Assembly: GCF_003991155.1 (NCBI RefSeq)
Contig: NZ_CP031293.1
From: Escherichia coli
GTDB taxonomy: Bacteria > Pseudomonadota > Gammaproteobacteria > Enterobacterales > Enterobacteriaceae
Length of the DNA stretch: 64,000 nt
Strand: one strand, 5' to 3'
Made by a program: the position numbers. Below, one piece after another: positions 27,001 to 30,000 of the stretch. The stretch's first letter is position 1; every line of letters begins with the position of its first letter.

Positions 27001-30000
27001 CGCTGCTTTCCGGCGTGGCCCCACGGGCAATACCGCCATTGTTATCGTGACCGAGATGACCGCCCTGAATGCTGAGACGGACGCTGTTGTTTTCACCATT
27101 TACACCGGTCTGATGGCTGCGGGAGCCTGCCACAATCCGGTCATAGTCCATTGCCTGTGTCAGCATGGAGGCATACAGGGGGACTTCTGCACGATAAGCA
27201 TTTTCACTGCGCAGATACCAGCTCTCATCACTGTCCCGGTTGAGGGAGTAGTTAAAGGCACCGGCCTGCAGCCTGTTCCCCTGGACAAAGGCCCCTTCCT
27301 CCGTGGTGGCACCGTTAATGGCTTCAACCACCTGAATACCCTTACCGCTGGTCGCCAGCCCCGACGCACTGTTGCCGGCGTTCACCAGGTTCAGGATGGT
27401 TTTTCCGGTTGCCCTGCCGCCGTCAATGACCAGTCTGTCAGCATTGTTCTGTGCCATATCCGGGCGTACACGCAGGCTGATGGTGCCATTCTGTCCGTTC
27501 AGGTTTTTCACTTTCAGGGTTGCCGGTACGAACTTCCCTGTGCGGGTGGAGGTGAAATGAATCTGTCCGGCATGGCTGAGGTCATCCACCACCGACTGCA
27601 CCGTGGCGTTATCGGGGATATTCCAGGTGGCACCGGAGGCGAGAGTGACATTCGTGGGGTCAATGGCACCGTTCAGCACAGTGCTGCCGGTCAGCTTCAG
27701 GGCTGTACCGCGCTGAGCAATGACATCCGTGGTGACGGTACTGTCGTTCAGCGTCAGCGTGCCTTCATTCAGGTTGACGGTTTTCTGGGTGAGTGTGGTG
27801 TTGCTGACAGTAAGTGTGCCACTTCCTGATTTTTCCACGCTGCCGTTACCGGTGAGAGAGCCTCCCTGCAGGAGTGCATCGCCTTCACGGATGGTCAGGG
27901 TATCGTTGTTCACCGTCTTCCCGGAAAGGGTAAGTATGGCGCCGTTATTCAGCGTGGTGGTGCCCGCCAGTGTGCCGCCCCTGGCGGTGAACAGTCCGCC
28001 ATTTACCGTGGTATCCGTGGCCGTATCACCGGCGTTCAGCGTGAATGAACTGCCTTTTTCCAGCATCAGGGCATCCGCCTGACCGCCTCCGATACTGAAT
28101 GCCTTTCCGTCGCTCCGGGTACCACTGACAGCGGCACCGGAATCGGCCAGCAGTACACCGCCATTTCCCATGGATACGGTGGTGGCGGTACCACCGTTGC
28201 GGACATCCAGCGTTCCGCCATCATCCACGCGGGTATTAGTGGCTGTGTGTCCGGTCAGCACATCCAGGCGTCCGCCATTTTCCAGTACGACATTATCAGC
28301 TTTACCCTCCACAACCGAGAATGCTCCAAGGCGGTTTATGCCGGTAACGGTTGCAGCCGTACTGGTAACCAGTGCACCGCCCGTGTTCTGGGTGACTGCA
28401 GTGGCTTCCCCGCCGGCATGTACCCTCAGTTCACCGTTCTGATTAACGGTGGTGTTACCGACAGCACCACCTGCCTTAACAACCTGCCAGCCCCCCTCGT
28501 TAATTACCGTGTTCAGCGCAAGTCCGTCCTTGTGCACATACTGGTAACCGCCATTCAGTGTGGTATTCAGGGCCCTTCCGTGTACCGACTGGTCACCACC
28601 TGCGTAAATGAGAGTGTCACGGGCTATCCCGGAAAATAAGATAATCTGCCGTCCATTTTTGTTGATGGTGGTGGATTCTGCTGTTCCCTGGACCTTCTGA
28701 CCCGTGTACGAGTTGTCAGAATCCGGGCCGCCTTCTGCGCCGGTGTTGATGATGGTTCCTGTTGCCAGCCCGCCACTTTTAACGCTCTGGTAACCGTCGC
28801 GGTTGATAATTGTACCGGTGGCAACCCCGCCCTCATGAACCCACTGCTCGCCTCTGTTATTCAGCGTGGTGTTCACCGCCAGCCCGTTCAGGCTCTGTCC
28901 CCCGCCGTCACGAATAACCGTATCACTGGCTGTTCCCCCCTCCAGCACGACCTGACGACCATTTGTGGTAACAGTGGTGTTTCCGGCTATCCCGCCATTC
29001 TGTATCCATTGCCCACCGGTGTTTTCTTCACTGTCCGGCCCCAGTTCCAGCCCGGTACTGATGGTCATTCCGTTGGCCGTACCGAGGACAATCTGGTTGT
29101 CATGATTTTCCAGTGTTCCGCCGTTCACGGTTTCACCTGCCTGTACAATACTGTCAGCAGCCAGGGCCGGGACTGACGTGACAGCAGCAAGAGACAGAGC
29201 AACCGCCACACCGGCGCCTTTTCCCCGTGAGCGGGCCAGTTCGGAGGCCACCACCAGGGTGCCCGTAATGTGATTCCATACCAGCCTGTAGCTGGTGTTC
29301 AGATGTCGTTTCATCAGCTTTTCCTTACAGAGGGTGAATAAAAAAGCCGGTACCCACAAATGTGGATACCGGCAGGTACAAAACAGCATGGTCAGATAAA
29401 GTGGTTTTTCCCGGACATAAATGCTTCCCCTCTCTCATCCGCCAGAGAAGTATCAGTCCGTTGTGTGCAATTCCGTTCTGCATGATGAAGAGATTCAGCT
29501 GCCTTTTCGCAGGCCATTAACCACTATAAACGATCGATATCAGCGATCGATACCTGTTTTATCGATCGTTTTATTCTATTGATAGCAGGGCGGTCACGCA
29601 AGAGAAACAGGAGGGTATGAGGGGGTTGTGTCATGTTTTCAGTTTGTTAATGCAATATAATCAGGCATTTCCCCTGGCAGAGTGTTCAGAAGAAAATCCA
29701 GTTCCATACAGCGCGGGCAACAGAGACCACCGAGTCACGGACGGCACGCAGAACCGTGCGTGCAACAGAGGCAATACAGACGCTCTCCGCCGTGTCAAAT
29801 ATCCGGTCCACCGCACCGGTAAACTGTTCACGGGCCTGAGACCGGACAGATTCCGTGCGCAGCTCGTCCTGCAGTCGGGTCATCAGGGGACTGGCGGCAT
29901 GGTCGGGAAGCGCTGTCATGAGCGCACTGACCAGCGTATCCAGTTCCCAGCCGGTGCGGGCCGATACGGCCACAACCGGATGTACGGGCCGGAACAGACG

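What the first reader, a model, noticed from the sequence alone, without database searches (positions are those of the whole stretch)
29315..29685. Antigen 43 phase-variation switch in the yeeP-flu spacer
Three GATC sites within about 36 bp lie roughly 220-250 bp upstream of the flu start, matching the Dam-methylation and OxyR-controlled switch known for agn43. In K-12 a small RNA is annotated in the equivalent spacer; I cannot verify one here.
Basis: partly seen in the sequence, partly recalled or inferred. Interest (0 to 1): 0.45.

Follow-up and report, generated by a model that had tools for sequence, protein, structure and literature searches.

The report
Antigen 43 Dam/OxyR on-off switch
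This spacer holds the well-known methylation-based on/off switch and leader RNA of the E. coli adhesin gene for antigen 43, in a common but little-studied sequence version; it is ordinary and already explained.

Summary
GATC sites at 29532, 29545 and 29564 span 36 bp in the 371-bp spacer between a yeeP-type GTPase gene and flu/agn43 on the minus strand. They lie 253, 234 and 221 nt upstream of the flu ATG at 29314. Without gaps they align with the three K-12 sites at the same 19/13-nt spacing, directly after a conserved -10 hexamer (TAGAAT).

Rfam IS102/IsrC matches 29333..29569 (-) at 74.4 bits (threshold 46). It is the agn43 leader, running from the first GATC to a conserved intrinsic terminator at 29346..29373.

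The window carries a second haplotype of the regulatory cassette. This haplotype occurs in about 3,287 of 5,426 complete E. coli genomes, against 1,243 for the K-12 type. It lacks the central OxyR half-site of K-12. It keeps two half-sites 32 bp apart (16/20 to consensus, the best match in the window), and these overlap all three GATCs and the -10.

The function is inferred by homology and was not tested here. Verdict: a known system, of low interest.

The parts
29686..30597 (-). yeeP-type GTPase ORF, the upstream neighbour whose stop codon bounds the spacer. It is intact here and a pseudogene in K-12.
   Evidence: ORF list. Pfam MMR_HSR1 GTPase match. Annotated 'GTPase family protein' in the 99.86%-identical Combat2C1 record. 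K-12 yeeP is annotated as a pseudogene.
29379..29683 (-). Regulatory cassette of the 'type-2' haplotype. It is not alignable by megablast with the K-12/CFT073 cassette, although the flanking yeeP (94%) and flu (92%) are.
   Evidence: blastn of the window against CFT073 PAI-pheV shows homology breaking at 29378 and 29684. Multiple alignment.
29596..29601 (-). Putative -35 hexamer TTGCGT (3 of 6 to consensus), 17 bp upstream of the -10. K-12 has TTGTCC at the same place.
   Evidence: Ungapped comparison with K-12. Conserved in all six other type-2 alleles aligned. Too weak for the generic promoter scan, which found nothing.
29573..29578 (-). -10 hexamer TAGAAT. It lies in a 16-nt block, AATAGAATAAAACGAT, that is invariant in all 8 E. 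coli alleles aligned.
29567..29567 (-). Inferred transcription start: the G of the promoter-proximal GATC.
   Evidence: The K-12 isrC annotation starts at the homologous G. The EC958 5'RACE value of 228 bp (PMC4807369) equals the position of that G in the CFT073 agn43a-type leader. Not measured for this allele.
29564..29567 (.). GATC-I (+1 to +4), inside the CTAT-like element of OxyR half-site 1.
29545..29548 (.). GATC-II (+20 to +23), overlapping the ATAG-like element of OxyR half-site 2.
29532..29535 (.). GATC-III (+33 to +36), overlapping the CTAT-like element of OxyR half-site 2.
29533..29579 (.). Predicted OxyR operator. It has two 15-bp half-sites, ATAGAATAAAACGAT (29565-29579) and ATCGCTGATATCGAT (29533-29547), whose starts are 32 bp apart. 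It matches the consensus ATAGnTnnnAnCTAT at 16 of 20 positions and overlaps the -10, the +1 and all three GATCs.
   Evidence: Consensus scan. This is the only site in the 64-kb window that reaches 16/20; the next best reach 14. The 16/20 score is kept in 8 of the 10 alleles scored, including K-12 and Citrobacter. Binding was not tested.
29337..29567 (-). agn43 leader RNA, an IsrC/IS102 homologue of about 225-230 nt when terminated. It has a 5' hairpin made by the GATC palindromes (29532-29567).
   Evidence: Rfam RF00124 match at 29333..29569 (-), 74.4 bits against a gathering score of 46, E = 9e-12, full model 1-206. Fold results.
29337..29373 (-). Intrinsic terminator in the leader: a 12-bp G+C-rich stem with a 4-nt loop (29346-29373) followed by UUUUUUAUU (29337-29345). 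It ends 23 nt before the flu ATG.
   Evidence: Terminator scan. The stem is invariant in the six alleles folded together, including K-12. Also predicted in the K-12 leader.
29312..29326 (-). Shine-Dalgarno AAGGA (29322-29326) and the flu start codon ATG (29312-29314).
   Evidence: The block TAAGGAAAAGCTGATGAAACGACATCTG is invariant in all 8 E. coli alleles aligned.
26192..29314 (-). flu/agn43 coding sequence (1040 aa), the gene under the switch.
   Evidence: NCBIfam NF033177 auto_Ag43 at 1862 bits against a cut-off of 1200. 91.4% nucleotide identity to K-12 flu and 91.9% to CFT073 agn43a.
23023..26077 (-). Probable downstream members of the operon: yeeR, split here into two overlapping ORFs (24770..26077 and 23554..24876, a frameshift), and irmA (23023..23478).
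   Evidence: ORFs. Pfam IrmA match, E = 1e-37. Combat2C1 annotates the yeeR region as 'frameshifted'. Co-transcription of agn43-yeeR-irmA and OxyR repression were shown in UPEC EC958 and CFT073 (PMC4807369). Not shown for this strain.

Best explanation
The spacer is the regulatory region of flu/agn43. It is an epigenetic on/off switch followed by a terminator-containing leader.

A sigma-70 promoter (-35 TTGCGT, 17-bp spacer, -10 TAGAAT) starts transcription at the G of the first GATC (29567, minus strand).

- OFF state: an OxyR tetramer binds two half-sites at -12..+3 and +21..+35. This covers the -10 and the start site, so transcription is blocked. The same binding shields the three GATCs (+1, +20, +33) from Dam, so the sites stay unmethylated and the OFF state is inherited.
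- ON state: after replication, Dam sometimes methylates the sites before OxyR rebinds. Methylation prevents OxyR binding and the ON state is inherited instead.
- Second layer: ON-state transcripts first make a leader of about 250 nt. Its intrinsic terminator (29346..29373 plus a U tract) yields the roughly 230-nt IsrC-like RNA. Only read-through transcripts reach flu and, probably, the frameshifted yeeR and irmA.

Shown here: the positions and conservation of every sequence element, the Rfam match, and the identity of the downstream gene. Inferred from homology and literature: the transcription start, OxyR binding, the effect of methylation, phase variation and antitermination.
For: - GATC sites: the three sites have the same 19/13-nt spacing as in K-12. 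Like the K-12 sites, they begin 6 nt after the invariant -10 hexamer TAGAAT.
- Transcription start: the K-12 isrC annotation starts at the homologous G. The EC958 5'RACE start at 228 bp equals that G in the CFT073 agn43a-type leader.
- OxyR site: the extended consensus scores 16/20 at 29533..29579. This is the only site in the window that reaches 16/20, and the score is kept in E. coli and Citrobacter alleles.
- Leader RNA: Rfam IS102/IsrC at 74.4 bits against 46. The terminator was found by the scan and is invariant across alleles.
[quoted passage not shown] The agn43-yeeR-irmA operon is derepressed in oxyR mutants.
- Downstream gene: an Ag43 equivalog.
- Conservation: the cassette occurs in 3,287 of 5,426 complete E. 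coli genomes.
Against: - No experiment on this operator haplotype was found in the searchable library. The alleles I could tie to experiments carry the other haplotype: K-12, CFT073 agn43a/b, and by inference EC958.
- In the K-12 register, the canonical 37-bp OxyR consensus scores only 10/20 here by hand count. The best register in the window-type operator scores 12/20, which is background level, against 14/20 in K-12. The promoter-proximal central half-site (ATCTAT in K-12) is replaced.
- The -35 is weak (3 of 6) and the generic promoter scan found nothing.
- dam and oxyR are not in the window, so their presence in this genome is assumed.
- The original biochemical papers (Haagmans 2000, Wallecha 2002, Wallecha 2014) could not be read.
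Confidence: 0.88

Rival explanations
1. The switch is present in form, but this haplotype behaves differently from the K-12 model. Having lost the central OxyR half-site, it binds OxyR more weakly or only in the extended geometry. Expression would then be ON-biased, would switch at other rates, or would in some strains not phase-vary at all.
For: The canonical consensus scores 10/20 in the K-12 register and at most 12-13/20 in any register, against 14/20 in K-12 and Citrobacter. Natural variants with only two GATCs exist in this haplotype: clone D i14 has GATT at site I, and LR-17-1 has a 13-bp deletion. No experimental paper on this haplotype was found.
Against: Both outer half-sites and all three GATC positions are conserved at 16/20, exactly as in K-12. 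The haplotype is the majority form in E. coli and is kept upstream of intact genes. That pattern argues for a working regulatory element.
Confidence: 0.25
2. The main product of the spacer is an independent, trans-acting small RNA (IsrC), and the GATC cluster is merely its promoter-proximal sequence.
For: The Rfam family is typed 'Gene; sRNA'. K-12 annotates isrC as an ncRNA. A strong terminator would release a discrete RNA of about 230 nt.
Against: The RNA starts at the agn43 promoter and ends 23 nt before the flu ATG on the same strand, so it is physically the flu leader. The literature describes flu as controlled by antitermination of IsrC. The middle of the RNA is not conserved between haplotypes; only the operator and the terminator are. 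That is not expected for a base-pairing sRNA with a conserved seed. No target is known to me.
Confidence: 0.07
3. The GATC trio is a chance cluster or serves another Dam-linked function, such as SeqA binding, without regulating flu.
For: A trio within 36 bp arises in 62% of shuffled windows, and another trio exists at 16475-16510 in coding DNA.
Against: The sites show exact positional homology to the experimentally defined K-12 sites. Site positions are conserved across two otherwise unalignable cassette haplotypes and in Citrobacter. They overlap the best OxyR-like site in the window.
Confidence: 0.02

Closest known systems
agn43 (flu) Dam/OxyR phase-variation switch of E. coli K-12 (Henderson & Owen 1999; Haagmans & van der Woude 2000; Waldron 2002; Wallecha 2002)
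   Same: - Three GATCs at identical positions relative to the -10 and +1, with the same 19/13-nt spacing.
- Identical -10 hexamer and start-site block.
- The same two outer OxyR half-sites (16/20).
- The same gene family downstream and the same yeeP-type gene upstream.
   Different: - The 14 nt between GATC-I and GATC-II differ: GATAAAACAGGTAT here, AATATCTATTTTAT in K-12. This removes the central half-site that gives K-12 its 14/20 canonical match.
- The -35 is TTGCGT here, not TTGTCC.
- The DNA upstream of the -35 and the leader interior are unalignable.
- The leader is 253 nt here against 222 nt in K-12.
IsrC / IS102 RNA (Rfam RF00124), the terminated agn43 leader (Wallecha et al. 2014, cited in PMC5389530)
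   Same: The full-length model match is above threshold. There is a 5' hairpin formed by the GATC palindromes, and the 12-bp terminator hairpin and U tract are identical to those of K-12.
   Different: The match carries two insertions relative to the model (41 against 35 nt, and 63 against 35 nt). The interior sequence is unrelated to that of K-12.
Regulatory regions of cah (E. coli O157:H7) and of the ST131 and clone D Ag43/Cah alleles
   Same: Same type-2 cassette at 89-97% identity, same operator and same leader length.
   Different: - The 5 nt between GATC-II and GATC-III vary: CTGAT here; TTACC, TTACT or TTTAT elsewhere.
- One O157 lineage has a cluster of substitutions and a 1-nt deletion in the leader.
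- The downstream passenger domain is of another Ag43 class, about 75% nucleotide identity.
Other Dam/OxyR switches: Salmonella gtr (P22) and opvAB, and phage Mu mom
   Same: OxyR half-sites overlap GATCs, so binding and methylation are mutually exclusive. The outcome is independent of the OxyR oxidation state.
   Different: Those systems use two alternative OxyR positions, one activating and one repressing, with four GATCs upstream of the promoter. Here there is a single repressing site over the -10 and +1 with three GATCs.

Membership tests
agn43-type Dam/OxyR phase-variation switch | Three GATC sites clustered at the promoter and start site of an Ag43-family gene, in the K-12 register (spacing 19 and 13 nt) | tested here: met
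   Sites at 29564, 29545 and 29532. The ungapped alignment to K-12 puts all three in register.
agn43-type Dam/OxyR phase-variation switch | An OxyR-binding sequence that overlaps the GATCs and the -10/+1 | tested here: inconclusive
   The extended consensus (half-sites 32 bp apart) scores 16/20, is the only site in the window to reach that score, and is conserved across alleles. The canonical 37-bp consensus reaches only background level in this haplotype. Physical binding cannot be tested with these tools.
agn43-type Dam/OxyR phase-variation switch | A sigma-70 promoter whose start site lies at the first GATC | tested here: inconclusive
   The -10 TAGAAT and a 17-bp spacer are conserved, and the K-12 isrC 5' end lies at the homologous G. 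The -35 is weak, the generic scan was negative, and there are no 5'-end data for this allele.
agn43-type Dam/OxyR phase-variation switch | The downstream gene is an Ag43/Cah autotransporter | tested here: met
   NF033177 auto_Ag43 equivalog at 1862 bits against a cut-off of 1200.
agn43-type Dam/OxyR phase-variation switch | The host encodes Dam and OxyR | not tested
   Neither gene was noticed in the parts of the window examined, and no search for them was run. The window is 99.86% identical to an E. coli chromosome. From general knowledge, both are core E. coli genes.
agn43-type Dam/OxyR phase-variation switch | Heritable, reversible ON/OFF expression that is locked OFF in dam mutants and locked ON in oxyR mutants | not testable with these tools
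   Known for K-12 and, for oxyR, for UPEC strains. Not known for this haplotype.
IsrC / IS102 RNA (Rfam RF00124) | A covariance-model score above the curated gathering threshold over the full model | tested here: met
   74.4 bits against 46, model positions 1-206 of 206, E = 9.4e-12, at 29333..29569 (-).
IsrC / IS102 RNA (Rfam RF00124) | A 3' Rho-independent terminator immediately upstream of the flu ribosome-binding site | tested here: met
   12-bp stem at 29346..29373 followed by a U tract. It is invariant in all aligned alleles.
IsrC / IS102 RNA (Rfam RF00124) | The RNA actually accumulates as a discrete species | not testable with these tools
   There are no expression data for this strain.

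The most novel reading that the evidence does not exclude
The 'type-2' regulatory cassette in this window has not, to my knowledge, been studied experimentally, although it is the majority form in E. coli (about 3,287 genomes against 1,243 for the K-12 type). It lacks the central OxyR half-site. OxyR may therefore bind it only in the extended geometry, with half-sites three helical turns apart, that is described for reduced OxyR. That would give switching rates or an ON/OFF bias different from the K-12 textbook values.

The cassette also behaves as a portable module tied to the yeeP end of CP4-44-like islands. It is swapped between Ag43 alleles by recombination. In Citrobacter a related K-12-type cassette drives small secreted proteins unrelated to Ag43.
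Probability: 0.3. Interest if true: 0.4.

Novelty: already known. Interest (0 to 1): 0.2.

Why it matters
Ag43 phase variation is a textbook case of epigenetic inheritance in bacteria. It governs aggregation, biofilm formation and bladder persistence of uropathogenic E. coli, and in such islands it also governs expression of the immune-mimic protein IrmA.

Confirming the switch here adds nothing new in kind. It does show that the version present in most E. coli genomes differs from the K-12 version in the part of the operator used for the classic consensus alignment. Quantitative models of switching built on K-12 may therefore not transfer to most clinical strains.

Tried and rejected
- MAFFT pairwise alignment with K-12 put a 13-nt gap in the operator and misaligned the GATCs. 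An ungapped comparison shows perfect register, so I rejected the gapped version.
- The generic sigma-70 scan found no promoter, because the -35 matches only 3 of 6. I identified the promoter by homology instead.
- The canonical 37-bp OxyR consensus gave no above-background match in this haplotype. I replaced it with the extended-spacing test.
- There was an apparent conflict between the EC958 5'RACE start (228 bp) and the -253 predicted here. It is resolved: the CFT073 agn43a-type leader has its first GATC at -228, so the RACE value belongs to the other haplotype.
- I considered whether the GATC-free flu coding sequence (0 sites against about 8.6 expected) insulates the switch. Six of the seven Ag43/Cah alleles checked have none and the seventh has 2. 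I down-weighted the idea for three reasons. cdiB and cdiA in the same window are equally depleted. TCGA and ACGT are also depleted in flu. GATC-free tracts in mobile elements are already reported (PMC4659465).
- I considered a leader peptide or translation-coupled antitermination. Every allele has an ATG-initiated ORF crossing the terminator. However, the start codons and reading frames differ between alleles, no Shine-Dalgarno precedes them, and there is no coding conservation. The idea is unsupported.
- RNA covariation in the leader: there are too few independent haplotypes, and the terminator is invariant, so this is uninformative.
- Literature: the search for IsrC with 'flu' was swamped by ISRCTN trial numbers. 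The primary papers were not held. No paper was found that tests the cah/type-2 operator.
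Full report
**What is in the sequence**

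The finding covers the 371-bp spacer between two minus-strand genes. The downstream gene is a 1040-codon ORF starting at the ATG at 29314. It is an Ag43/Cah autotransporter: the NCBIfam auto_Ag43 equivalog scores 1862 bits against a cut-off of 1200, and the gene is 91% identical in nucleotides to K-12 flu. The upstream gene (29686..30597) is a yeeP-type GTPase.

GATC occurs at 29532, 29545 and 29564, and nowhere else between 26132 and 30683. On the flu-sense strand the sites begin 253, 234 and 221 nt before the ATG.

A trio of GATCs within 36 bp is not rare in itself. It appears in 62% of dinucleotide shuffles of the window, and a second trio lies in coding DNA at 16475-16510. The significance comes from context, not from counting.

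**Comparison with K-12**

The window is 99.86% identical over 40 kb to the chromosome of the urinary isolate E. coli Combat2C1. It is syntenic with the pheV pathogenicity island of CFT073.

I fetched the K-12 MG1655 locus, where isrC is annotated between yeeP and flu. MAFFT inserted a spurious gap in the operator. An ungapped comparison anchored on the shared block AATAGAATAAAACGATC puts all three GATCs of the window exactly on the three K-12 sites, with spacings of 19 and 13 nt.

The annotated K-12 isrC 5' end is the G of the first GATC. As I recall the abstract of Wallecha et al. 2002, the agn43 transcription start is that same G. The paper is not held in the library, so this rests on memory. 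Independent support comes from 5'RACE in UPEC EC958, which placed the start 228 bp from the start codon (PMC4807369). In the CFT073 agn43a leader the first GATC lies at exactly -228.

By homology the start in the window is 29567. The -10 is TAGAAT (29573-29578) and the -35 is TTGCGT (29596-29601), with a 17-bp spacer. The -35 is weak, which is why the generic promoter scan found nothing.

**The small RNA**

A scan of 28000-31500 against Rfam gives one match: IS102/IsrC (RF00124) at 29333..29569 on the minus strand. It scores 74.4 bits against a gathering score of 46, with E = 9e-12, over the full model.

The RNA begins at the operator and ends at an intrinsic terminator, a 12-bp G+C-rich stem at 29346..29373 followed by UUUUUUAUU. 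The terminator ends 23 nt before the flu ATG. The hairpin is invariant in all aligned alleles, including K-12.

The 'sRNA' is therefore the terminated flu leader. [quoted passage not shown] 2014). How read-through is achieved could not be examined here.

**Two haplotypes of the regulatory cassette**

I aligned eight E. coli alleles: the window, ST131 cah, clone D i14, LR-17-1, two O157 cah lineages plus strain 123, and K-12. I also examined CFT073 agn43a and agn43b. The alleles fall into two deeply diverged versions of the roughly 300-bp cassette between the yeeP stop and the terminator.

K-12 and both CFT073 genes carry one version. The window and the cah-type genes carry the other, which I call type-2. 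Against CFT073 agn43a the window aligns through flu (92%) and yeeP (94%), but not across 29379..29683. The cassette has therefore been exchanged independently of its flanks.

Only five blocks are shared between the two versions:
- the -35 region;
- the -10/+1/GATC-I block;
- TATCGATCG (GATC-II);
- ATCGATCGTT (GATC-III);
- the terminator with the ribosome-binding site.

In complete E. coli genomes an 80-mer of the type-2 operator is found in 3,287 of 5,426 genomes (4,723 places). The K-12-type 80-mer is found in 1,243 genomes (1,333 places). The window therefore carries the common form, and K-12 the minority form.

**The OxyR site**

I scored the Toledano/Storz consensus, ATAGnTnnnAnCTAT-N7-ATAGnTnnnAnCTAT. 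K-12 scores 14/20 in a register that covers the GATCs. The window scores 10/20 in that register (hand count) and 12/20 at best. That is background level: 102 such positions occur in the window. The reason is that the 14 nt between GATC-I and GATC-II differ, which destroys the central half-site.

I then tested half-sites whose starts are 32 bp apart (17-nt gap). From my knowledge of Toledano et al. 1994, this is the geometry described for reduced OxyR: two pairs of adjacent major grooves separated by one helical turn. cites that paper for a 'canonical' reduced-form spacing. In this geometry the window scores 16/20 at 29533..29579. It is the only site in 64 kb that reaches 16/20, and the next best reach 14.

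The 16/20 score is retained in K-12, ST131, clone D i14, O157 and two Citrobacter species. The exceptions are LR-17-1 (14/20) and C. werkmanii (17/20).

The two half-sites are ATAGAATAAAACGAT (-12 to +3) and ATCGCTGATATCGAT (+21 to +35). Their four recognition elements fall on the -10 hexamer, GATC-I, GATC-II and GATC-III.

This arrangement would explain three things: repression by occlusion of the promoter, protection of all three sites from Dam, and loss of binding on methylation. It is an inference from sequence. Binding was not tested.

**Mechanism, and what is shown**

The published model is competition between Dam and OxyR after replication:
- OxyR bound to unmethylated sites gives the OFF state.
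- Methylated sites exclude OxyR, giving the ON state.
- Both states are heritable.
- Switching occurs at about 1e-3 per generation.

In UPEC, agn43-yeeR-irmA is one transcript and is derepressed in oxyR mutants. In the window irmA is intact (23023..23478; Pfam IrmA), and yeeR is split by a frameshift.

Everything about function in this strain is inferred. I found no experiment on the type-2 operator in the searchable library.

Natural variants of type-2 with only two GATCs exist. Clone D i14 has GATT at site I, and LR-17-1 has a 13-bp deletion and a truncated gene.

**Distribution beyond E. coli**

A scan of one genome per species for CGATC-N12-ATCGATCG-N5-ATCGATCG returned five loci:
- Three are from Citrobacter species.
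- One is an E. coli-like contig binned as Collinsella.
- One is a chance match in a high-GC genome.

In C. braakii and C. amalonaticus the promoter and operator are of the K-12 type and sit downstream of a yeeP homologue (59-61% amino-acid identity). The downstream cargo there is two small signal-peptide proteins. They have no Pfam match and no similarity to IrmA or Ag43. The first belongs to a very small family of hypothetical proteins.

**Ideas tested and set aside**

*GATC-free flu.* The flu coding sequence has no GATC, against 8.6 expected from synonymous-codon permutation. The same holds for K-12 flu, O157 and ST131 cah, clone D Ag43 and CFT073 agn43a. CFT073 agn43b has two. I considered whether this isolates the switch. 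However, cdiB (0 against 6.7 expected) and cdiA (8 against 36.6) in the same window are equally depleted. TCGA and ACGT are also depleted in flu. GATC-free tracts in mobile elements are already documented (PMC4659465). The depletion is real but is not specific to the switch.

*Upstream ORFs.* Every allele has an ATG-initiated ORF crossing the terminator. The start codons and frames differ between alleles and there is no ribosome-binding site, so this does not support a leader peptide.

**Verdict**

The element is the well-known agn43 Dam/OxyR switch with its IsrC-like leader, so it is already known. The one modestly new point is that the operator is the majority, seemingly unstudied haplotype, and that it fits only the extended OxyR geometry.

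Noticed in passing
window 26132-29531 and 29568-30683: The three switch GATCs are the only ones in about 4.5 kb. The flu coding sequence has 0 GATC against about 8.6 expected under synonymous-codon permutation, and yeeP has 0 against 3.1. The same zero count is seen in K-12 flu, O157 and ST131 cah, clone D Ag43 and CFT073 agn43a; CFT073 agn43b has 2. TCGA and ACGT are also depleted in flu. This probably reflects general avoidance of short palindromes and GATC in island genes, not insulation of the switch.
   Followed up: partly
window 49003-60654: The cdiB-like gene (49003..50775) and the cdiA-like gene (50788..60654, 3288 aa) are strongly GATC-depleted: 0 against 6.7 and 8 against 36.6 expected. 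Between 47243 and 59961 the only GATCs are three at 53443, 53505 and 53538, inside the cdiA coding sequence.
   Followed up: partly
L010 3977-6200 (Citrobacter braakii ATCC 51113); L013 (C. amalonaticus); L009 7175-7212 (C. werkmanii): In C. braakii and C. amalonaticus an agn43-type promoter plus three-GATC operator (K-12-like) lies downstream of a yeeP homologue. It precedes two small secreted proteins of unknown function (154 and 157 aa) instead of Ag43. There is no long leader: the ATG lies about 90 nt after the operator. C. werkmanii has a similar operator (17/20 to the extended OxyR consensus) upstream of a different gene and without yeeP.
   Followed up: partly
window 26268-27133: 52 of the 57 differences between the window and the otherwise near-identical Combat2C1 chromosome cluster in the 3' (translocator) end of flu. 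This suggests a recombination tract within the gene.
   Followed up: no
window 23554-26077: yeeR, between flu and irmA, is split into two overlapping ORFs (24770..26077 and 23554..24876). Combat2C1 annotates it as frameshifted. irmA downstream is intact.
   Followed up: partly
window 29325-29483 (minus strand): A 52-codon ATG-initiated ORF runs through the leader terminator and stops in the flu Shine-Dalgarno region. In every allele examined some ATG ORF crosses the terminator; in K-12 that ORF is in frame with flu. The start codons and frames are not conserved, and no ribosome-binding site is evident.
   Followed up: partly
L004 (clone D i14) and L005 (LR-17-1) operator regions: There are natural two-GATC variants of the type-2 operator. 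Clone D i14 has GATT at site I upstream of an intact gene. LR-17-1 has a 13-bp deletion removing one GATC upstream of a truncated gene.
   Followed up: no
L012 (contig binned as a Collinsella MAG): This 1.5-kb contig carries an E. coli-type yeeP 3' end and a type-2 agn43 spacer, with the homology broken inside the terminator stem. It is probably a mis-binned E. coli fragment with an insertion or rearrangement.
   Followed up: no
window 29514-29530 with 29321-29340 (minus-strand RNA): The consensus fold predicts a long-range pairing between the segment just after the operator (UUUAUAG..GGU..AAUGG) and the U tract and Shine-Dalgarno region. The sequence is conserved, but no covariation supports the pairing.
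   Followed up: no
window 16475-16510: This is the only other trio of GATCs within 36 bp in the window. By coordinate mapping to the Combat2C1 annotation it lies inside the kpsF/gutQ-type coding sequence. It is consistent with chance.
   Followed up: partly
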